Origin: Escherichia coli
GTDB lineage: Bacteria > Pseudomonadota > Gammaproteobacteria > Enterobacterales > Enterobacteriaceae
Length of the DNA stretch: 64,000 nt
Strand: one strand, 5' to 3'
Assembly: GCF_016026235.1 (NCBI RefSeq)
Contig: NZ_CP065613.1
Part shown: one piece after another, positions 6,203 to 61,647 of the stretch
How the letters are laid out: every line of letters begins with the position of its first letter
Numbering within the stretch: position 1 is the stretch's first letter
Program-made: the position numbers and the translations under genes
Notes under the pieces: generated by a model
What the model saw: only the letters and a program-made list of their open reading frames with translations
Database searches by the model: none
Told to the model about the DNA's origin: nothing

Positions 6203-6221
6203 TTAAGGTTTAAGGATTAGC

Positions 6222-6812
6222 GTGCAAGAAAGAATTAAAGCTTGCTTCACTGAAAGCATTCAAACTCAAATTGCGGCGGCAGAGGCGCTTCCGGATGCCA
6301 TCTCCCGTGCGGCCATGACGCTGGTTCAGTCTCTGCTCAATGGCAACAAAATCCTCTGTTGTGGTAATGGAACTTCCGCTGCCAATGCACAGCATTTTGC
6401 TGCCAGCATGATCAACCGTTTCGAAACGGAGCGGCCCAGCTTACCTGCCATTGCACTAAATACTGATAATGTTGTCTTAACGGCGATTGCCAACGATCGC
6501 TTACATGATGAAGTGTATGCAAAACAGGTGCGGGCGCTGGGTCATGCGGGAGATGTATTGTTAGCCATTTCTACCCGTGGCAACAGCCGCGATATTGTAA
6601 AAGCGGTAGAAGCTGCCGTTACGCGTGATATGACCATTGTGGCATTGACCGGCTATGACGGCGGTGAACTTGCAGGTTTGTTAGGGCCACAGGATGTGGA
6701 GATCCGCATTCCTTCGCATCGTAGTACTCGCATTCAGGAAATGCATATGCTGACGGTAAATTGCCTGTGCGATCTGATCGATAACACGCTTTTCCCTCAC
6801 CAGGATGATTAA
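6222..6812 (+). CDS. diaA: DnaA initiator-associating protein, SIS domain
   Basis: 196 aa with GTG start at 6222; SIS phosphosugar-binding fold motifs ([16 protein letters not shown]). Confidence 0.9.
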
Positions 6813-10681: not shown

Positions 10682-11171
10682 AATGCTCGTGATACTCAAC
10701 CAGACCGGTTACGCCATTCAGCGCGTCATCCGCTAAACGATGTACCTGGAAGGCGCTTTCAGTGCCCGGCCAGCGGCAACGCAGATCGTGATGCGCCGCC
10801 AGTTCAAAGCCGAAACGACTGTACAGCGCCGGATCGCCCAGCGTCACCACTGCGGCATAGCCGAACTCATTAAGCGAATCGAGTCCTTCATAGACCAGTT
10901 GGCGTGCCAGCCCCTGTCCACGGTATTTTTCATCAACCGCCAACGGTGCCATGCCGACCCATTGCAGGTCTTCGCCCTGCACATCAACCGGACTAAATGC
11001 CACATAGCCAATGACCTGACCTTCGTCATCTGTCGCCACCAGTCCCAGCGTCAGAAAGCCATCTTCACGCAGATCGTGAACCAGCTTCGCTTCCGCATCA
11101 CTTTCGAATGAGCGACGCAGCAGGGCATCAATACCCGGCGCATCAATGGGAATTTCTACTCGAATTAGCAT
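10668..11171 (-). CDS. yhbS: GNAT family N-acetyltransferase
   Basis: 167 aa; acetyl-CoA-binding segment ([11 protein letters not shown]). Confidence 0.85.
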
Positions 11172-11689
11172 GGTTCACCTACCGATGTCTGTTTGGTTTC
11201 AGGCGCGGTTTTCATTCCCGCCTCAACAAAATCCGCCAGTTGCAGCAGCATCATGCGTAAGGCTTTCGGCATTTGCTCCAGTTCAATGGCGTCCATCAGG
11301 TTTTTCACATACAGCCCCAGCTCCGTATCGCCTTCAATCACCAGCCGACGCTGGAAGAAGAGCGTATCTGGATCTTGTTTACGCGCCGCAATCATCAGCA
11401 GATCGCTGGCGTCGGCACTAAAACTCACATCAGCTTGCGCGTTCTGGCTGACCACCAGTTTGCCATTCACCACCGAGGTAAACCATTGCAGGTCAATATC
11501 ACGCACATGAATACTTAACCAGCGGCCTTCAAGAAACTCCAGCTCGCCATCATCCAGCGCCTGACGGAATTGCCAGCTTAAGACCTGCTCAAGAACCTGG
11601 CGTTTTAGCGCAAATGGCGTCAGTTTTACCGGTACACTCAACAGAGATGGCCCCAAATGCACAATACGGGAACGCAGTTTATCCAACAC
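11165..11689 (-). CDS. ubiT: SCP2-domain lipid-binding accessory factor of O2-independent ubiquinone biosynthesis
   Basis: 174 aa if started at GTG (cac at 11687-11689); the ORF track offers an ATG 8 codons upstream. First gene of the unit that diverges from ubiU. Confidence 0.75.
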   Translation of the reverse strand: MLDKLRSRIVHLGPSLLSVPVKLTPFALKRQVLEQVLSWQFRQALDDGELEFLEGRWLSIHVRDIDLQWFTSVVNGKLVVSQNAQADVSFSADASDLLMIAARKQDPDTLFFQRRLVIEGDTELGLYVKNLMDAIELEQMPKALRMMLLQLADFVEAGMKTAPETKQTSVGEPC

Positions 11690-11897
11690 GAGTTTTACTC
11701 CCTGTTTCAACAATCATCCTATTTTGCCATATCAGAAAAATAACATAGCGGTATAAATCAACAATTCCATATGAAATTGCTGCTACCACCAATACAACTT
11801 TAACTGCCTTAAATCAAAAATTGTCGCAGCAAGGTTAACTAAAATCCCAGTTCGTTAACATTTTTGCGTTTTGATAGCGCAACCTTCAGGAAAAATT

Positions 11898-13780: not shown

Positions 13781-13785
13781 GTAAA

Positions 13786-13905
13786 TATGCTCGTCATACT
13801 TCAAGTTGCATGTGCTGCATCTGCATTCGTTCACCCCAGTCACTTACTTATGTAAGCTCCTGGGGATTCACTCTCTTGTCGCCTTCCTGCAACTCGAATT
13901 ATTTA
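13786..13905. repeat. ERIC (IRU) element
   Basis: The core 13828-13871, read in reverse complement, is gtgaatccccaggagcttacataagtaagtgactggggtgaacg, which matches the ERIC core consensus with one mismatch. Outer boundaries are approximate. Confidence 0.6.
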
Positions 13906-13985
13906 GAGCACAGCTCACTTTGTTAACAACTTTAACTACTCTTTAATGCAGTATTAAAGATTAATCGGTAACAAAGTGAGCTGTT

Positions 13986-19570: not shown

Positions 19571-21706
19571 TTACTCGCCCTGTTCAGCAGCCGGAGCTTC
19601 CGGTGCTGCAGCAGGTTGAGACTGCTCAGTCGCTTCTTTAATGCTCAGACGGATACGGCCCTGGCGATCAACTTCCAGAACTTTCACCGGTACTTCCTGA
19701 CCCATCTGCAGGTAATCGGTCACTTTCTCAACGCGTTTGTCAGCGATTTGAGAGATGTGGACCAGACCTTCTTTACCGCCGCCGATGGCAACAAATGCGC
19801 CAAAGTCAACGATACGGGTCACTTTACCAGTGTAGACGCGGCCCACTTCGATTTCTGCAGTGATCTCTTCGATACGACGAATAGCATGTTTCGCTTTCTC
19901 GCCGTCGGTCGCTGCGATCTTCACAGTACCGTCATCTTCGATTTCGATGGTAGTGCCAGTTTCTTCGGTCAGGGCACGGATAACAGAGCCGCCTTTACCG
20001 ATAACGTCTTTGATCTTATCCGGGTTGATCTTGATGGTATGGATACGCGGTGCGAACTCAGAGATATCGCCACGCGGCGCGTTGATCGCCTGTTCCATTA
20101 CGCCCAGGATATGCAGACGCGCACCTTTAGCCTGGTTCAGCGCAACCTGCATGATCTCTTTGGTGATACCTTCAATTTTGATATCCATCTGCAATGCAGA
20201 GATACCCTCGCGGGAACCCGCAACTTTGAAGTCCATATCGCCCAGGTGATCTTCGTCGCCCAAAATGTCAGACAGTACAACGTAGTTGTCGCCTTCTTTC
20301 ACCAGACCCATTGCGATACCCGCAACGGCAGCTTTGATCGGCACACCTGCGTCCATCAGCGCCAGAGACGCGCCGCACACGGAAGCCATAGAAGAGGAAC
20401 CGTTGGATTCAGTGATTTCAGACACAACACGTACGGTGTACGGGAATTTGTCCATATCCGGCATGACTGCCAGCACGCCGCGCTTCGCCAGACGACCGTG
20501 ACCAATTTCACGACGCTTCGGAGAACCGACCATGCCGGTTTCGCCTACGGAGTACGGAGGGAAGTTGTAGTGGAACAGGAAGGTATCGGTACGTTCGCCC
20601 ATCAGTTCATCAAGAACCTGCGCGTCACGAGCAGTACCCAGCGTTGCGGTAACCAGCGCCTGCGTTTCACCACGGGTGAACAGCGCAGAACCGTGAGTAC
20701 GCGGCAGCACGCCAGTACGCACATCCAGACCACGGATCATATCTTTTTCACGACCGTCGATACGCGGTTCGCCTGCCAGTACGCGGCTACGAACAACGTT
20801 TTTCTCGATAGCGTGCAGAATTTCACCCAGTTCGTTTTCGTCCAGGGTTTCGTCTTCAGCAAGCAGCGTCGCGATGGTTTCAGATTTGATGACATCAACC
20901 TGCGCATAACGCTCTTGTTTGTCGGTGATGCGGTAAGCATCGCTCAGGCGAGCTTCAGCCAGTGCAGCAACGCGCGCGTTCAGCGCTTCGTTTACCGGCT
21001 CCGGCTGCCAGTCCCAACGCGGTTTACCGGCTTCTTTCACCAGTTCATTGATGTTCTGAATAACAACCTGCTGTTGTTCATGACCGAACACTACTGCGCC
21101 CAGCATCTGGTCTTCGCTCAGCAGTTCAGCTTCAGATTCAACCATCAGTACAGCGGCTTCAGTACCCGCAACAACCAGATCCAGTTTGCTCTCTTTCAGC
21201 TCGTCCTGAGTCGGGTTCAGTACGTACTGGTCATTGATGTAACCTACGCGGGCAGCACCAATCGGGCCATTGAACGGAATACCAGACAGAGACAGTGCTG
21301 CGGAAGCACCAATCATCGCGACGATATCCGGGTTAACCTGCGGGTTAACAGAAACCACGGTGGCGATAACCTGAACTTCGTTGACGAAGCCTTCCGGGAA
21401 CAGCGGGCGAATCGGGCGGTCAATCAGACGCGCGATCAGGGTTTCGCCTTCGCTTGGACGACCTTCACGACGGAAGAAGCTACCCGGGATACGACCAGCA
21501 GCGTAGGTACGCTCCTGATAGTTAACGGTCAGTGGGAAGAAGTCCTGACCTGGTTTGGCTTTTTTCTGGCCAACAACGGTAACAAATACCGCGGTGTCAT
21601 CCATGCTAACCATAACAGCGGCAGTAGCCTGACGAGCCATCATGCCGGTTTCCAGAGTCACGGTGTGTTGGCCGTACTGGAATTTACGAACGATCGGATT
21701 AAGCAA
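19571..21706 (-). CDS. pnp: Polynucleotide phosphorylase
   Basis: 711 aa from a UUG start (caa at 21704-21706); two RNase PH domains plus KH and S1 domains. Confidence 0.9.
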
Positions 21707-21906
21707 TGTAATATCCTTTCTCTTTCTTAGACAGTACCTTACGGCACTGGTGTTAATACCCGATCTTCTGCGCATCCTCGCGACTAATGACAACCCTAAC
21801 CCAGCTCTATGTGGGTAAAGCCTCTCATTAGCCGCGCGAACCTCTGCAACGGAAGATCATTCATAGCAACAATACATTAGTTTCCAGTGAATTGCTGCCG
21901 TCAGCT

Positions 21907-21936
21907 TGAAAAAAGGGGCCACTCAGGCCCCCTTTT
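21907..21936 (-). terminator. rpsO rho-independent terminator
   Basis: Hairpin aaggggcc/ggcccctt with a T-run on the minus strand, just downstream of rpsO. Confidence 0.6.
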
Positions 21937-21952: not shown

Positions 21953-22318
<366 letters not shown>

Positions 22319-23793: not shown

Positions 23794-23867
23794 GGCCTGA
23801 TAAGACGCGCCAGCGTCACATCAGGCAATCCATGCCGGATGCGGCGTAAACGCCTTATCCCGCATGG
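23794..23867. repeat. REP/BIME element
   Basis: ggcctgataagacgcgccagcgtcacatcaggc and gccggatgcggcgtaaacgccttatcccgcatg between infB and rbfA. Confidence 0.5.
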
Positions 23868-23880
23868 AACCCTAAAAACC

Positions 23881-26553
23881 TTAAGCGATGGTACGTTGGA
23901 TCTCGATGATTTCGAATACTTCGATCACATCGCCAGTGCGGACGTCGTTGTAGTTCTTAACGCCGATACCACATTCCATACCGTTACGGACTTCGTTAAC
24001 GTCATCTTTGAAGCGGCGCAGGGACTCCAGCTCGCCTTCATAGATAACCACGTTGTCACGCAGAACGCGGATCGGGTTGTGACGTTTAACCACACCTTCG
24101 GTAACCATACAGCCTGCGATGGCACCAAATTTCGGCGATTTGAACACGTCACGAACTTCCGCCAGACCGATAATCTGCTGTTTCAGTTCCGGAGACAGCA
24201 TACCGCTCATCGCCGCTTTCACTTCGTCGATCAGGTTATAGATGACGGAGTAGTAACGCAGATCCAGGCTTTCCGCTTCAATCACTTTACGTGCAGAGGC
24301 ATCAGCACGTACGTTGAAGCCAACCAGGATGGCGTTGGACGCCGCAGCCAGGGTGGCGTCGGTTTCGGTGATACCACCTACGCCAGAACCGATGATCTTC
24401 ACTTTAACTTCGTCAGTAGACAGTTTCAGCAAGGAGTCGGAGATCGCTTCCACAGAACCCTGTACGTCTGCCTTCAGGACGATATTCACTTCGTGAACTT
24501 CGCCTTCGGTCATGTTGGCGAACATGTTCTCGAGTTTAGATTTCTGCTGACGCGCCAGTTTAACTTCGCGGAATTTACCCTGACGATAGAGTGCAACTTC
24601 ACGCGCTTTCTTCTCGTCACGTACAACGGTAACTTCATCACCCGCAGCCGGAACACCGGATAAGCCGAGGATTTCCACCGGAATGGACGGACCCGCTTCC
24701 AGCACTTCCTGACCCAGTTCGTTACGCATCGCACGAACACGACCGTATTCGAAGCCACACAGAACGATATCGCCCTTGTGCAGAGTACCTTCACGTACCA
24801 GAACGGTAGCAACCGGACCACGACCTTTATCGAGGAAGGATTCGATAACCGCACCGCTCGCCATACCTTTACGTACCGCTTTCAGCTCCAGAACTTCCGC
24901 CTGCAGCAGGATAGCGTCCAGCAGTTCATCGATACCGGTACCCGCTTTCGCAGATACGTGTACGAACTGGCTTTCACCGCCCCACTCTTCCGGCAGGATG
25001 CCGTACTGGGAGAGTTCGTTCTTAACGCGATCCGGATCGGCTTCTGGTTTATCGATCTTGTTCACTGCAACCACCACCGGTACCTGCGCCGCTTTCGCGT
25101 GCTGGATTGCTTCGATGGTCTGCGGCATTACGCCGTCGTCGGCAGCAACAACCAGGACTACGATGTCAGTTGCCTGCGCACCACGTGCACGCATTGAAGT
25201 AAACGCAGCGTGCCCCGGGGTGTCCAGGAAGGTGATCATGCCGTTTTCAGTTTCAACGTGGTATGCACCAATGTGCTGGGTAATGCCGCCCGCTTCGCCA
25301 GAGGCCACTTTCGTTGAGCGAATGTAGTCCAGCAGAGAGGTTTTACCGTGGTCAACGTGACCCATGATGGTCACAACCGGCGCGCGCGGTTCAGCCGCAG
25401 CACCCGTGTCACGGTCGCTCATTACCGCCTCTTCCAGCTCGTTTTCACGACGCAGGATAACTTTGTGGCCCATCTCTTCAGCAACCAGCTGTGCGGTTTC
25501 CTGATCGATAACCTGGTTGATGGTTGCCATTGCGCCCAGTTTCATCATCGCTTTGATGACCTGAGAGCCTTTAACCGCCATCTTGTTCGCCAGTTCGCCA
25601 ACGGTGATGGTTTCGCCGATCACAACGTCACGGTTAACGGCCTGAGCTGGCTTCTGGAAGCCTTGCTGCAGGGAAGAACCTTTACGTTTTCCGCCTTTAC
25701 CGCCACGTACTGCTGCGCGTGCTTCTTCACGATCAGCTTTTGATTCAGCGTGTTTGTTGCCTTTCTTCGGACGCGCTGCTTTCGCGTTACGACCACGGCC
25801 ACGGCCGCCTTCGACTTCACGATCGCTTTCGTCTTCTGCCTGGCGAGCATGTTGAGAAGTAGTGACGTGATAATCGCTGGAATCTTCAGTCGGTTCCGCG
25901 TTATCAGTCCATTTGTTTTCTTCCGCCATACGACGTGCTTCTTCAGCAACGCGACGTGCTTCTTCTTCGAGTTTACGACGCGCTTCTTCTTCGGCTTTAC
26001 GCTTGAGCTCTGCAGCTTCCTGCTCACGGCGGGCTTTTTCAGCTTGGGCGTTTTTAGTCATATCGTCTTGTTGATTGCTCACTTTGTCTTTTTCCGCAGC
26101 TTCACGTTTCGCTTGTTCAGCAGCTTCACGCTTAGCTTGTTCTGCGGCCTCACGTTCAGCTTTTTGTTGCGCCTCGCGTTTAGCCGATTCTTCTGCCTCA
26201 CGACGGGCTTGCTCTTCCGCTTCACGCTGCGCTTGCTCTTCCGCTGCAAGGCGTTCAGCCTCTTGCGGATCGCGTTTCACAAAGGTGCGTTTCTTGCGGA
26301 CTTCGATTTGTACCGATTTGCTTTTTCCACCGGTACCAGGAATGTTAAGGGTGCTGCGTGTTTTACGTTGCAGCGTCAATTTGTCCGGGCCTGAATTTTT
26401 CTGATTCAGGTGGTCAATCAAAGTCTGTTTCTCTTGTGCAGACACAGAGTCGTCAGCAGACTTCCGGATACCTGCATCAGCAAATTGCTGTACCAGGCGT
26501 TCCACGGAGGTCTGTCGCTCTGCGGCCAGCGTTTTAATCGTTACATCTGTCAT
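23881..26553 (-). CDS. infB: Translation initiation factor IF-2
   Basis: 890 aa; G-domain motifs ([17 protein letters not shown]); repetitive EAxxQAKREA N-terminal region. Confidence 0.95.
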
Positions 26554-28092: not shown

Positions 28093-28545
28093 TTAAAAGT
28101 GGGGAACCAGGTTCGCCTTCTGGATATTACTCAGCGCGAACACTTCATCTTTACCTTCGACGGTAACTGTGATCATTTCACCGTCTACCGCTTTGATAAC
28201 GCCCTGCCATTTACGACGGTTTTGTACCGCCATACGGAGAACCAGAGTCACCTCTTCTCCGACAAAACGGGCGTAGTGTTCAGCCGTGAACAGTGGGCGA
28301 TCGAGACCCGGTGAGGAGACTTCCAGGTTATAAGCAACGGTGATGGGATCTTCAACATCCAGCACAGCACTTACCTGGTGGCTCACATCAGCACAATCAT
28401 CAACATTGATGCCATCTTCACTATCAATATAGATGCGCAGTGTGGATGTGCGACCGCGAATAAATTCGATGCCAACCAGTTCAAAACCCAGGGCCTCAAC
28501 TGGCGCAGTAATCATCTCTGTTAATTTTTGCTCTAATGTGGACAA
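28093..28545 (-). CDS. rimP: Ribosome maturation factor RimP
   Basis: 150 aa if initiated at UUG (caa at 28543-28545); the ORF track offers an ATG 4 codons upstream. Confidence 0.85.
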
Positions 28546-28751
28546 GCCCACCCCCAAGACATAAAAAAAGGGCCTAAAGCCCAGTTATTCTGTAGTCAGA
28601 TAACAAAAAACCCCGATAAATCGGGGCTTTATATAACTGAACCCTATAACCGCAACTGCGGTCTGGAGCACTTTCCAGAAGGATTTTTTCAAATCCCACT
28701 ACGAAGGTCGAAGTCTTCACAGTATATTTGAAAAAGGACTCTAAGGGAAAG

Positions 28752-28828
<77 letters not shown>

Positions 28829-30702: not shown

Positions 30703-31656
30703 ATGAATGGTAAATATTTTGTACGCCTCGCATTACATACTCTGAAATGCACTCAAAAAGATTTAGCAAGCCACTTAGGTGTTTCCTCAACACAAATTAG
30801 CAAGTGGAAAAAAGGGGAACACATGTCCGCTGATATGGAAAAAAAGTTCAGAAATATTACACAAATAGGAGATTATTCTCCTCAACTAGTTGAATGGACA
30901 GGCTCAGTCGCGAATGCTGAGAAATGGGATCGACTTATCCATTTTCTTGCTCGACGAGCTATGGACGATGCTGAAACGGGTTATATAACACAACTTCTTA
31001 CTGACGAAGATGGTTTTTTGGTTGAAGAAACAATTGATGTATTAAAGCGAATAGGTTTTCCTACACCTCTTTCCTTTCCTGAAGGACTTAATATTGACGA
31101 CGATAATGCTGATGAAGAAGAGGCTTTTTGGGAGATATTAGAGAGCAATGCTCATTGTTCTGTAATTAATGATATTTATCATGCTCTGAATGATGTTTAT
31201 GGTTTCTACATAGCATATGTTGATGAGTTGATTCAGGACGACGATTTAGATGTCTATTCAAGCGAAGCCATCAATATTCAGAGTTCATTGATATCACTTG
31301 CTGCATGCAAAATTGAAATTGATACTCCTGTTGCGTCAAACTTTAAAGAATTTCGTTATAGAGTTAAAAAAGACTACGAAAATTGGTTGAATCAACTCAA
31401 GATGATGGCATTCAGGGCGGGAATTCCGTTAAGAGCCGAACTTCTGGAAATGGTTTATAACACCGCTGACCAACTTAGCGTTGCAGCAGAAGCCGAACGT
31501 TTCGATTTCAATAAATCTCGCATTCATCCAGATATATACATGAACGAGATCCTTACTGGCATGAGAATAATTCACCAAGTGCTTCCGGTAATAATGCAAA
31601 AGTTAGAAATTACAGATTTCAAACTAGATGAAACAGATTTATGCCTGGGTAAATAG
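30703..31656 (+). CDS. Uncharacterised 317-aa protein with N-terminal XRE-type HTH and acidic C-terminal domain of unknown function (replaces yhbX of K-12 at this locus)
   Basis: Only long frame in a roughly 1.1-kb AT-rich block; RBS aagga lies 8 nt upstream of the ATG. Residues about 10-45 (LKCTQKDLASHLGVSSTQISKWKKGEH) fit the Cro/C1 HTH pattern. I recognise no motif in the remainder. Confidence 0.6.
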   Translation: MNGKYFVRLALHTLKCTQKDLASHLGVSSTQISKWKKGEHMSADMEKKFRNITQIGDYSPQLVEWTGSVANAEKWDRLIHFLARRAMDDAETGYITQLLTDEDGFLVEETIDVLKRIGFPTPLSFPEGLNIDDDNADEEEAFWEILESNAHCSVINDIYHALNDVYGFYIAYVDELIQDDDLDVYSSEAINIQSSLISLAACKIEIDTPVASNFKEFRYRVKKDYENWLNQLKMMAFRAGIPLRAELLEMVYNTADQLSVAAEAERFDFNKSRIHPDIYMNEILTGMRIIHQVLPVIMQKLEITDFKLDETDLCLGK

Positions 31657-38374: not shown

Positions 38375-38621
38375 TTGTTATACCTCTTGAATATTCCTGA
38401 TGGGGCAAGTCTTCACCCACCCCGGCTGTTCGGCCTGCCCGGCATAACTCCTCACCGGGACCAGAAGCAAAAAAATACCGACCCAGGTACAAGTCCCAGG
38501 TCAGCTACAATTCACATTTTGATAGTCATTTTACCCTGAAGTTCCCGAAGGGTCATCGTTTACTTTATAGGGCGTTGCGCCGTAGTATGACGGCTCGATT
38601 CCAGGTTGTTAGCGCGAGATT

Positions 38622-40055: not shown

Positions 40056-40069
40056 TCAAAAAGAAACCC

Positions 40070-40082
40070 CGGCACATGGCCG
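40070..40082. repeat. IS4 target-site duplication, left copy
   Basis: cggcacatggccg, identical to 41508-41520. Confidence 0.85.
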
Positions 40083-40100
40083 TAATGCCAGTCAGTTAAG
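40083..40100. repeat. IS4 terminal inverted repeat, left
   Basis: taatgccagtcagttaag, 16 of 18 matches to the reverse complement of 41490-41507. Confidence 0.85.
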
Positions 40101-41423
40101 CAACTGACTGGCTCTTTTTCGGGGCTGTGGGGTATTTCCAGGGCCTCTCCTTTACCACTCTCGGGAAGGCCCTTCCCCTTCTCGTCGGTAATTTCACAAG
40201 TTGTCCCATACTTGCAAGATCGCGCATCAGCTCCGGTATACGTCCCGGTGAAGCGCCCTGCAATGTCATCAGCATTCTCATCACCATTCCGCATGATTCT
40301 GAGAAACTCAGTTGATTCGGCCAGTAACCTTTCAGATGTTCCGCCATTTTAATCATCTGATATCTCACCAGATTATAAGCCAGTAAGACACCCCACAGCT
40401 CTTGCTCCACAAGCTCCGGCTTTTTACTTCTCAGCGTCAGCCTGCTCAGTTGCATCGTCTGTTTTATCTCCCTGTATCCCAGTTCGATTTCCCAGCGATG
40501 ACTGTACAGATCCGCCATTTCTCCTCCGGGGAAGCGCATGGCGTCCGTCATCGACGTCAGCAGATGGCAGACTTTTCCTTTGCGCGTCACGGTCAGCAGG
40601 CGGGCTGTCACTTCATTTCCCAGTCCCGGCCACTTTTTTCGTGCCTGCGGGCTGGTTTTCAGCTTCACCAGATGATCGCCTTTACCCAGTTTTCTGAGCT
40701 CTTCATATTGCGCTCCCTTTCTGAGAGGTATCATCCAGTGGCGGTGTTCTCCCGCCAGGCTCCAGGCATTTAACAGTCCCAGTGAGTAATAACCTTTATC
40801 CATTAACGTCAGAGTGTTATCGCCGGTTTGTTCTATAAGTTGCTCAGCAAGCTCATTTTCGCTGTTCTTCATCGTGCCGAAGGCTGCAGCCGTCAGCAGA
40901 TGGCTGGTCAGTTCCATCTGGCAGACCATTTTGACCTGCGGGTAGAGCGCCGGGTTCCCGGCATGTGTCTGGCGGGGAAGGCTGCATCGTTCTCTGGTGT
41001 ATCCGGTGTGCGCCAGAACACACCATCGATGGCCAGCAGGGTCAGGCCGCACCAGTGCGGATGCGGCGTGGCGTTATGCCAGAGCTGCGCTGTTTTCGTG
41101 AACACGCGGCGGACAGCCTCACTTCCCAGGCGCTGGCGGGCCTGAATAACGGCACTGGGGGCAACGAAGGGGCGATTGCCCGGCAGCATGATGTCCAGGC
41201 GATTCACAATCTGGTGAAGAGGTTCTTTACGCTCAAGCGCCATGCCAACAATACACCAGACCATCATTTCGAGGGGAAGACGGCGCTTGCGTAGCGTTAC
41301 AGTACCTGATTCGGCAAGGCAACGAGAGATGAGTTCGGGGTCGAGGTAATCCCCCAGAGAAGTCAGTGGGTTACGCAGAGAATCGTAACGGGATACCAGA
41401 TCAAGAGCCTGTCCAATGTGCAT
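40096..41423 (-). pseudogene. insG: IS4 transposase interrupted by a -1 frameshift
   Basis: Two overlapping minus-strand ORFs (40908-41441 and 40096-41052) together encode 150 + 292 = 442 aa of one continuous transposase. The frame changes at a G4 run, 40974-40977. Confidence 0.8.
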
Positions 41424-41489
41424 AAAAAAATCCGGAAACAAGTGAGCGTTTCCGGATTCTTACACAGCCACTGGATCGGTCAACTGATC

Positions 41490-41507
41490 CTTAACTGATC
41501 GGCATTA
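41490..41507. repeat. IS4 terminal inverted repeat, right
   Basis: cttaactgatcggcatta. Confidence 0.85.
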
Positions 41508-41520
41508 CGGCACATGGCCG
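41508..41520. repeat. IS4 target-site duplication, right copy
   Basis: cggcacatggccg. Confidence 0.85.
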
Positions 41521-41532
41521 GGGTTTTGCTGA

Positions 41533-49416: not shown

Positions 49417-51016
<1,600 letters not shown>

Positions 51017-61526: not shown

Positions 61527-61647
61527 CGTGCGGCCTGAAAAACAGTGCTGTGCCCTTGTAACTCATCATAATAATTTACGGCGCAGCCAAGATTTCCCTG
61601 GTGTTGGCGCAGTATTCGCGCACCCCGGTCTAGCCGGGGTCATTTTT
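61527..61647 (+). ncRNA. arcZ: Hfq-dependent small RNA ArcZ
   Basis: GTGCGGCCTGAAAAACAGTGCTGTGCCC...CACCCCGGTCTAGCCGGGGTCATTTTTT matches the ArcZ sequence as I remember it; its terminator overlaps the arcB stop on the opposite strand. Confidence 0.85.

What the first reader, a model, noticed from the sequence alone, without database searches (positions are those of the whole stretch)
21704..21706. Non-AUG initiation codons on several genes
pnp (UUG at 21704-21706), rimP (UUG at 28543-28545), diaA (GUG at 6222) and probably ubiT (GUG at 11687-11689) use non-AUG starts when matched to known protein lengths. The ORF track, which requires ATG, over-extends or mis-starts them. pnp and rimP both sit in autoregulated operons, where weak start codons are functionally relevant.
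Basis: partly seen in the sequence, partly recalled or inferred. Interest (0 to 1): 0.15.

Follow-up and report, generated by a model that had tools for sequence, protein, structure and literature searches.

The report
Four known non-AUG start codons

Summary
The window is E. coli chromosome (yraJ to arcB). All four claimed starts are at the stated coordinates: pnp UUG 21704-21706(-), rimP UUG 28543-28545(-), diaA GUG 6222-6224(+), ubiT GUG 11687-11689(-). Both NCBI's automatic annotation and the curated K-12 MG1655 record use these starts. Each has the best-placed Shine-Dalgarno sequence among nearby candidate codons, and orthologues in other species start at the same aligned codon. For pnp there is published experimental proof: a 30S toeprint at the UUG and an N-terminal peptide MLNPIVR carrying Met at that codon. 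These are the only non-ATG primary starts among 65 mapped genes (6%, below the roughly 17% E. coli norm), so there is no enrichment. An ATG-only ORF caller would over-extend pnp (ATG at -69, the 734-aa form) and truncate the other three. The claim that the weak codons matter for autoregulation is not shown. The codons are strongly conserved across species: pnp UUG in 46/46 Enterobacterales and Orbales loci, rimP UUG in 48/58 loci and ubiT GUG in 37/38. That fits selection but does not establish a mechanism. Verdict: already known, low interest.

The parts
21704..21706 (-). pnp initiation codon UUG
   Evidence: Sequence. PGAP and MG1655 CDS ends. 30S/tRNAfMet toeprint at +15 and a TTG-to-TGA mutant in PMC5029454. 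N-terminal peptide MLNPIVR with Ribo-RET and INRI support in the PMC13245402 supplement. TTG at this aligned codon in 46/46 Enterobacterales and Orbales loci.
21714..21718 (-). pnp Shine-Dalgarno AAGGA, 7 nt before the UUG
   Evidence: Sequence. Best anti-SD duplex is -5.4 kcal/mol with correct spacing. AAGGA/AGGA is conserved in the orthologous leaders.
19571..21706 (-). pnp coding sequence (711 aa)
   Evidence: Pfam finds RNase_PH, PNPase, KH and S1 domains.
21773..21775 (-). Upstream in-frame ATG (-69) that is not the pnp start (obsolete 734-aa form)
   Evidence: It sits at the 3' foot of the long leader hairpin. 33 of 46 orthologous loci have no in-frame upstream ATG before a stop, and the stop is as close as -6.
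28543..28545 (-). rimP initiation codon UUG
   Evidence: TTG at the aligned codon in 47 loci, plus one more after correcting a 2-codon offset. ATG at the same codon in 10 Vibrio loci, several with TAA directly upstream. PDB chains of E. coli RimP begin MSTLEQ.
28549..28555 (-). rimP Shine-Dalgarno GGGGGUG; its last three bases form the in-frame GUG at -6
   Evidence: Anti-SD duplex is -9.7 kcal/mol, 3 nt before the UUG. Only -4.3 kcal/mol with zero spacing is available for the GUG at -6.
28093..28545 (-). rimP coding sequence (150 aa)
   Evidence: Pfam finds RimP_N and the RimP C-terminal domain.
28563..28663 (-). rimP leader (Rfam RF01770), ending 18 nt upstream of the UUG
   Evidence: Rfam match of 102 bits against a gathering score of 47. 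Terminator-like hairpins, z = -4.0.
6222..6224 (+). diaA initiation codon GUG
   Evidence: In-frame stop at -15 and next ATG at +93, which would cut into the SIS_2 domain that aligns from residue 13. PDB 2yva chain of 196 aa starts at this codon. Orthologues have GTG (Cronobacter, a 5.9-Mb enteric genome, Sodalis) or ATG (5 more distant loci) at the same aligned codon.
6212..6216 (+). diaA Shine-Dalgarno AAGGA, 5 nt before the GUG
   Evidence: Sequence. Duplex energy -5.9 kcal/mol.
6222..6812 (+). diaA coding sequence (196 aa)
11687..11689 (-). ubiT (yhbT) initiation codon GUG
   Evidence: GTG in 37/38 orthologous loci and ATG in one at the same codon. The adjacent TTG (+3) is not conserved; it becomes ATT, TTC or CTT.
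11698..11703 (-). ubiT Shine-Dalgarno AGGGAG, 8 nt before the GUG
   Evidence: Duplex energy -7.7 kcal/mol, with a 7-nt gap after the 9-mer. GGAG is conserved in orthologues.
11165..11689 (-). ubiT coding sequence (174 aa)
   Evidence: Pfam SCP2 domain.
26080..26082 (-).
   Evidence: Sequence. Separate CDS in MG1655. N-terminal peptides [10 protein letters not shown]....

Best explanation
These are four ordinary, already annotated, Shine-Dalgarno-led bacterial initiation sites that use the near-cognate codons UUG (pnp, rimP) and GUG (diaA, ubiT). The 30S subunit is positioned by SD/anti-SD pairing 5-8 nt upstream, and initiator fMet-tRNA reads the codon with a first-position mismatch. The protein therefore starts with Met, not Leu or Val. 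Initiation is expected to be less efficient than at AUG (10-100% of AUG in reporter assays). Shown here or in papers read: the positions of all four starts, and actual initiation at the pnp UUG. Inferred: that the weaker codon is used to hold translation of these genes down, and in pnp to make initiation easier to out-compete by the leader-based controls (RNase III/PNPase, CsrA, SraG).
For: The annotation agrees in two independent records. At each gene the annotated codon has the strongest and best-spaced SD among all candidates within the open frame. Orthologue DNA gives pnp TTG in 46/46 Enterobacterales and Orbales loci. In the other gammaproteobacteria the start is GTG one codon downstream in 19 loci and ATG in 14. 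rimP is TTG in 48/58 loci, with ATG in 10 Vibrio loci at the same codon. ubiT is GTG in 37/38. diaA is GTG or ATG at the same aligned codon in 8/8 loci, with stops at -3 and -6 in two of them. The pnp upstream frame is closed within 6-27 nt in many species. Experimental support comes from the toeprint at the pnp UUG and the peptide MLNPIVR with Met at the UUG plus Ribo-RET and INRI peaks. PDB chains start at the same residues for RimP and DiaA. Reporter efficiencies for GUG and UUG are 10-100% of AUG.
Against: I found no direct N-terminal or ribosome-profiling evidence for RimP, DiaA or UbiT. They are absent from the held part of the N-terminomics table, which was truncated on storage. The PDB sequences are recombinant constructs that follow the annotation, so they are not independent. 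For rimP, in-frame GUG (-6) and UUG (-12) codons exist and the whole region is too conserved to discriminate by substitution pattern alone. For ubiT, UUG at +3 shares the same SD. The regulatory role of codon weakness is untested.
Confidence: 0.95

Rival explanations
1. pnp is translated from the upstream in-frame AUG at -69 (21773-21775), giving a 734-aa protein as in older annotations. The UUG would then be an internal leucine codon.
For: The frame is open for 50 codons upstream in E. coli and E. albertii and contains an ATG. The mechanical ORF list extends pnp to 21793.
Against: The published peptide MLNPIVR carries Met at the UUG, and the toeprint is at the UUG. The ATG has no spaced SD; its best duplex abuts the codon. 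It lies at the foot of the leader hairpin. 33 of 46 orthologues have no upstream ATG before a stop. MG1655 record version .4 uses the UUG.
Confidence: 0.01
2. rimP starts at the in-frame GUG 6 nt upstream (152 aa) or the UUG 12 nt upstream (154 aa) rather than at 28543-28545.
For: Both codons are in frame and downstream of the stop at -39. The mechanical ORF list starts rimP at 28557. The MG1655 protein record is at version .6, showing that the start has been revised repeatedly.
Against: The GUG is part of the SD itself, with zero spacing and -4.3 against -9.7 kcal/mol. The UUG at -12 has no usable SD. In Photobacterium, Pseudidiomarina, Shewanella and others the -6 and -12 codons are not start codons, while the TTG at position 0 is kept. 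Vibrio has ATG at position 0 with TAA directly upstream.
Confidence: 0.04
3. ubiT starts at the UUG immediately after the GUG (11684-11686), giving a protein one residue shorter.
For: The same SD is 10-11 nt upstream, still within the usable range.
Against: That codon is ATT, TTC, CTT or TTA in many orthologues, whereas the GTG is kept in 37/38 and is ATG in the other.
Confidence: 0.03
4. On function: the non-AUG codons have no regulatory meaning. They are tolerated sub-optimal starts, fixed historically and compensated by good SD sequences, as in the roughly 17% of E. coli genes with such starts.
For: Genome-wide analyses find selection generally favours AUG and see weak starts as sub-optimal states compensated by the SD. 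diaA switches freely between GTG and ATG among relatives. Vibrio uses ATG for both pnp and rimP. The leader-structure comparison shows no clean link between start-codon class and leader hairpin.
Against: The first base of the pnp UUG is invariant in 46 taxa, whereas only 11 of 144 four-fold degenerate sites in the same genes escaped a transversion. rimP and ubiT show the same pattern with fewer sites, 0/7 and 0/4. Flanking bases at -1 to -3 of pnp vary while the TTG does not.
Confidence: 0.45

Closest known systems
Reference annotation of E. coli K-12 MG1655 (b3164 pnp, b3170 rimP, b3149 diaA, b3157 ubiT/yhbT)
   Same: Same genes, same start codons, same protein lengths of 711, 150, 196 and 174 aa.
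   Different: Nothing of substance. The window is another E. coli strain, 99.9% identical to FDAARGOS_943, with a few SNPs and different IS content.
infC (IF3) autoregulation through its AUU start codon
   Same: A sub-optimal start codon in a translation-related, autoregulated gene.
   Different: AUU is a non-canonical codon that IF3 itself discriminates against. UUG and GUG belong to the canonical trio. PNPase and NusA are not known to act on start-codon selection. pnp control described in the paper read works through the leader (RNase III, PNPase, CsrA, SraG), and the nusA-infB operon is described as being controlled through transcription terminators and NusA.
Internal GUG start of infB (IF2-beta) in the same window
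   Same: A GUG read as Met by initiator tRNA, confirmed by N-terminal peptides and annotated in MG1655.
   Different: It is an internal, secondary site that produces an N-terminally shortened isoform, not the primary start of a gene.
cdsA UUG start re-assignment in E. coli (PMC11448367)
   Same: Another E. coli gene whose annotated start is TTG rather than a downstream ATG (abstract seen).
   Different: A different gene. That paper reports multiple usable initiation codons, which I have no evidence for here.

Membership tests
Canonical SD-led bacterial initiation at a near-cognate (GUG/UUG) codon | GUG or UUG in frame with, and at the 5' edge of, the conserved coding region | tested here: met
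   The four codons precede the conserved N-termini. Orthologous starts fall on the same aligned codon. Pfam domains begin within 13-43 residues of the start.
Canonical SD-led bacterial initiation at a near-cognate (GUG/UUG) codon | Shine-Dalgarno complementarity 4-10 nt upstream, better than for competing codons | tested here: met
   Duplex energies are -5.4 (pnp), -9.7 (rimP), -5.9 (diaA) and -7.7 (ubiT) kcal/mol with 3-7 nt gaps. Alternatives are weaker or mis-spaced.
Canonical SD-led bacterial initiation at a near-cognate (GUG/UUG) codon | The codon is decoded as (f)Met by initiator tRNA | tested here: inconclusive
   Met for pnp only, through published data: peptide MLNPIVR and a tRNAfMet-dependent toeprint. 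No peptide evidence was found for RimP, DiaA or UbiT.
Canonical SD-led bacterial initiation at a near-cognate (GUG/UUG) codon | No conserved in-frame AUG upstream before a stop | tested here: met
   rimP, diaA and ubiT have stops at -39, -15 and -24 with no ATG. The pnp ATG at -69 is absent in 33/46 orthologues.
Start-codon-dependent autoregulation (infC/IF3 type) | Non-canonical start codon (AUU, AUC, AUA, CUG) subject to IF3 discrimination | tested here: not met
   The codons are UUG and GUG, members of the canonical trio.
Start-codon-dependent autoregulation (infC/IF3 type) | The gene product modulates its own synthesis by acting on start-codon selection | not testable with these tools
   Needs reporter fusions with UUG against AUG at varying PNPase, NusA or IF2 levels. 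The primary pnp autoregulation papers were not held.
pnp leader-based autoregulation (RNase III / PNPase / CsrA / SraG) | Long RNase III-type hairpin in the rpsO-pnp intergenic leader and an antisense SraG gene | tested here: met
   The leader folds at -67.6 kcal/mol, z = -3.5, with a long hairpin. Rfam SraG matches at 164 bits at 21765-21936(+).
pnp leader-based autoregulation (RNase III / PNPase / CsrA / SraG) | Dependence of that control on the UUG being a weak codon | not tested
   No accessible experiment. The comparison of leader hairpin strength across start-codon classes is confounded by phylogeny.
rimP-nusA-infB leader attenuator (Rfam RF01770) | Covariance-model match upstream of rimP | tested here: met
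   102 bits against a gathering score of 47 at 28563-28663(-).

The most novel reading that the evidence does not exclude
The weak start codons of pnp and rimP may be selectively maintained regulatory parts rather than tolerated defects. UUG is invariant for pnp in all 46 Enterobacterales and Orbales species sampled, and a non-AUG codon is used in 65 of 79 gammaproteobacterial loci. rimP keeps UUG in 48 of 58 loci spanning several orders. Four-fold degenerate sites in the same genes are saturated. The idea is that slow initiation keeps the ribosome-binding site open long enough for competing factors. In pnp these would be CsrA, PNPase or SraG acting on the leader. For rimP the effect would be to set a low RimP:NusA:IF2 ratio from one mRNA, possibly making RimP synthesis sensitive to the initiator-tRNA (metY) and IF2 supply encoded in the same operon.
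Probability: 0.3. Interest if true: 0.3.

Novelty: already known. Interest (0 to 1): 0.06.

Why it matters
The main value is annotation hygiene. It shows that an ATG-only ORF track mis-calls four genes in this window: one is 23 residues too long and three are truncated by 10, 31 or more than 80 residues. It also shows that the standard annotation already has them right. Correct N-termini matter for expression constructs, proteomics databases and interpretation of 5' leaders. The only slightly new point is the depth of conservation of the UUG and GUG codons. This gives a cheap, testable hypothesis (UUG-to-AUG swaps) about translational tuning in two well-studied operons.

Tried and rejected
1. 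I tried to read the primary pnp autoregulation papers (Park 2015 PMC4652041, Robert-Le Meur & Portier 1992 PMC556739, Carzaniga 2009 PMC2648360, Jarrige 2001 PMC125756). None is held, so I could not check whether a UUG-to-AUG mutant has been characterised. I have a vague recollection of translation-initiation-region mutants in Robert-Le Meur & Portier 1994 but do not rely on it.

2. The Ribo-RET preprint has no held supplements. The INRI-seq supplement lists only an out-of-frame alternative peak near rimP and nothing on the annotated start.

3. RimP, DiaA and UbiT are not in the held, truncated N-terminomics tables.

4. My DiaA protein search used only the first 80 residues. It returned mostly truncated or frameshifted entries. 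I used eight of them only for their start regions.

5. I tested whether start-codon class (UUG, GUG or AUG) tracks the strength of the rpsO-pnp leader hairpin. Median best 90-nt window energies were -40.0, -33.6 and -30.6 kcal/mol, but the classes coincide with taxonomic orders and base composition, so I draw no conclusion.

6. I considered that the SraG promoter on the opposite strand constrains the pnp UUG. By the MG1655 coordinates the UUG complement lies about -15 to -17 from the SraG start, just upstream of a TAATAT box that occupies the SD-to-start spacer. This is my own reading of the sequence. I saw no reason an ATG or GTG would damage that promoter, so I dropped the idea.

7. I rejected enrichment of non-AUG starts in this window, because the window is depleted in them.

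Full report
**What the window is.** A 10-kb slice around the finding is 99.9% identical to E. coli FDAARGOS_943 and is present in 5422 of 5426 complete E. coli genomes. The window is colinear with that genome, with 18 mismatches over the first 34 kb. The annotated coordinates of that record can therefore be read directly as window coordinates up to about 34.6 kb. The window runs from yraJ to arcB and includes the rpsO-pnp and metY-rimP-nusA-infB-rbfA-truB operons.

**Check of the observation.**
- The reverse complement of 21704-21706 is TTG, followed by [11 protein letters not shown].
- The reverse complement of 28543-28545 is TTG, followed by [10 protein letters not shown].
- 6222-6224 is GTG, followed by QERIKACF.
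- The reverse complement of 11687-11689 is GTG, followed by LDKLRSR.
- NCBI's PGAP annotation places the CDS boundaries at exactly these codons: pnp 19571..21706, rimP 28093..28545, diaA 6222..6812, ubiT 11165..11689.
- The curated K-12 MG1655 record has the same gene lengths. Its protein records for pnp (.4) and rimP (.6) have been revised several times, which fits a history of start-codon corrections.

I mapped every annotated CDS onto the window and found 61 ATG, 2 GTG and 2 TTG starts among 65 genes. The four genes named are therefore the complete set of non-ATG primary starts. At 6% they are fewer than the 83/14/3% E. coli norm quoted would predict (P of 4 or fewer = 0.009). Nothing about the number is unusual in the direction of excess.

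**Are these the true starts?** I examined every alternative codon in the open frame around each gene and scored Shine-Dalgarno pairing.
- pnp: AAGGA lies 7 nt upstream of the UUG. The frame stays open for 50 codons upstream and contains an ATG at -69, which gives the obsolete 734-aa form. That ATG has no spaced SD and lies at the foot of the long leader hairpin.
- rimP: GGGGGUG pairs at -9.7 kcal/mol, 3 nt before the UUG. The in-frame GUG at -6 is part of that SD, and the UUG at -12 has none. There is no upstream ATG, the stop is at -39, and the next ATG is at +30.
- diaA: AAGGA lies 5 nt upstream. The stop is at -15 and the next ATG is at +93, inside the SIS_2 domain that already aligns from residue 13.
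- ubiT: AGGGAG lies 8 nt upstream. The stop is at -24 and there is no ATG in the first 80 codons.

An ATG-only ORF caller therefore over-extends pnp and truncates the other three. The mechanical longest-ORF list over-extends pnp to 21793 and rimP to 28557.

**Comparative evidence.** One scan of species-representative genomes with PNPase and 10-kb flanks returned 80 loci. Many of them also carry rimP and ubiT.
- pnp: the codon aligned to the E. coli UUG is TTG in all 46 Enterobacterales and Orbales loci. The remaining gammaproteobacteria start one codon later with GTG (19 loci) or use ATG (14 loci, mainly Vibrio). In 33 of the 46 TTG loci there is no in-frame ATG upstream before a stop, and the stop is often only 6-27 nt away.
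- rimP: TTG is found in 48 of 58 loci across Enterobacterales, Photobacterium, Aeromonas, Alteromonadales and Shewanella. Ten Vibrio loci have ATG at the same aligned codon, several with TAA immediately upstream. The -6 and -12 codons are not conserved as starts.
- ubiT: GTG is kept in 37 of 38 loci and is ATG in one, while the neighbouring TTG at +3 is not conserved.
- diaA: this gene lay outside the flanks, so I located eight orthologous starts through a protein search and contig look-ups. Cronobacter, a 5.9-Mb enteric genome and Sodalis have GTG. Five more distant loci, including Plesiomonas and Paraglaciecola, have ATG at the same aligned codon, with in-frame stops at -3 and -6 in two of them.
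- PDB entries for E. coli RimP and DiaA begin at these residues. They follow the annotation, however, and are not independent evidence.

**Experimental evidence from papers.** For pnp, the SraG study reports a 30S- and tRNAfMet-dependent toeprint 15 nt from the UUG and uses a TTG-to-TGA mutant to abolish pnp translation (PMC5029454). The supplement of a 2026 N-terminomics study lists pnp as a TTG database start with the peptide MLNPIVR, that is, Met at the UUG, supported by Ribo-RET and INRI-seq (PMC13245402). The same tables show Met-initiated peptides from the internal GUG of infB (codon 158, window 26080-26082). RimP, DiaA and UbiT do not appear in the held, truncated part of those tables, so their starts rest on sequence and comparative evidence only.

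**How it works.** These are standard SD-led initiation sites at near-cognate codons. GUG and UUG give 10-100% of AUG output in reporter assays. Genome-wide, selection tends to favour AUG, and weak starts are partly compensated by the SD. Against that background the conservation seen here is notable. The first base of the pnp UUG is unchanged in 46 taxa, while only 11 of 144 four-fold degenerate sites in the same alignment escaped a transversion. For rimP and ubiT none of the few usable sites did (0/7 and 0/4). The bases at -1 to -3 of pnp vary while the TTG does not. This is consistent with selection to keep a weak codon, but it is a crude count without phylogenetic correction. The rimP start also sits in a stretch that is conserved at nearly every base, directly after the Rfam rimP leader.

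**The autoregulation claim.** The operons are autoregulated according to the papers I could read. pnp is controlled through RNase III, PNPase, CsrA and SraG acting on the leader. The nusA-infB operon is controlled through terminators and NusA. I found nothing that ties either mechanism to the identity of the start codon, and the primary pnp papers are not held. The classical start-codon-dependent circuit (infC, with an AUU discriminated by IF3) is a different case, because UUG and GUG are canonical starts. A comparison of leader hairpin strength between loci with UUG, GUG and AUG starts gave differences that coincide with taxonomy and cannot be interpreted. The functional remark therefore remains a reasonable hypothesis and not a finding.

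**Verdict.** All of it is already in the reference annotation and, for pnp, in the experimental literature. Novelty: already known. Interest: low.

Noticed in passing
window 26080-26082 (-) and 26059-26061 (-): infB has an internal in-frame GUG (codon 158, IF2-beta) and an AUG (codon 165, IF2-beta'). Both are annotated as separate CDS in MG1655 and supported by N-terminal peptides.
   Followed up: yes
window ~40058-41528: An IS4 copy sits between dacB and obgE/cgtA. It is 98-99% identical to IS4 elements elsewhere in E. coli and is absent at this site in FDAARGOS_943 and MG1655. Its transposase is split into 177-aa and 318-aa ORFs on the minus strand, so it is probably frameshifted.
   Followed up: partly
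window ~34620 (between folP and ftsH); L001 34640-35830: The closest genome, FDAARGOS_943, carries an ISEc60 insertion here that the window lacks.
   Followed up: partly
window 50207-51016 (-), mlaF: The N-terminomics supplement reports an alternative start at a GTG four codons into mlaF (peptide MANLVDMR) alongside the annotated ATG.
   Followed up: no
window 28546-28752 (-), upstream of rimP: A transposon-reporter study (PMC12350097) reports a small translated ORF, 'CDS115', co-conserved with rimP and suggested to be a leader peptide for the rimP-nusA operon. I did not locate it in the window. The region also holds the Rfam rimP leader at 28563-28663.
   Followed up: no
window 28516-28560 (-): The sequence around the rimP start (cuugggggugggcUUGuccacauuagagcaaaaauua) is almost base-for-base identical across Enterobacterales, including synonymous positions of codons 2-8. 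A small GUGG/CCAC stem could place the UUG in a loop. The reason for this conservation is unexplained.
   Followed up: partly
window 21709-21721 (+): By the MG1655 coordinates SraG starts about 15 nt from the pnp UUG on the opposite strand. A TAATAT box that fits its -10 element (my own reading of the sequence) occupies the spacer between the pnp SD and the start codon, so the two signals overlap. Rfam's model covers only 21765-21936.
   Followed up: partly
window 30703-31656 (+): A helix-turn-helix protein gene sits after argG, where MG1655 has yhbX on the opposite strand. This is a strain-specific difference.
   Followed up: no
window 13781-13985: The ubiV-yhbW spacer is 205 nt here and in FDAARGOS_943 but 80 nt in MG1655, so about 125 nt of extra intergenic sequence is present. 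I did not examine it.
   Followed up: no
window 38470-38591 (-), 61528-61635 (+), 23794-23864 (-), 22166-22280 (-): Other Rfam matches above gathering score are the greA leader, ArcZ sRNA, naRNA4 and the S15 leader.
   Followed up: no
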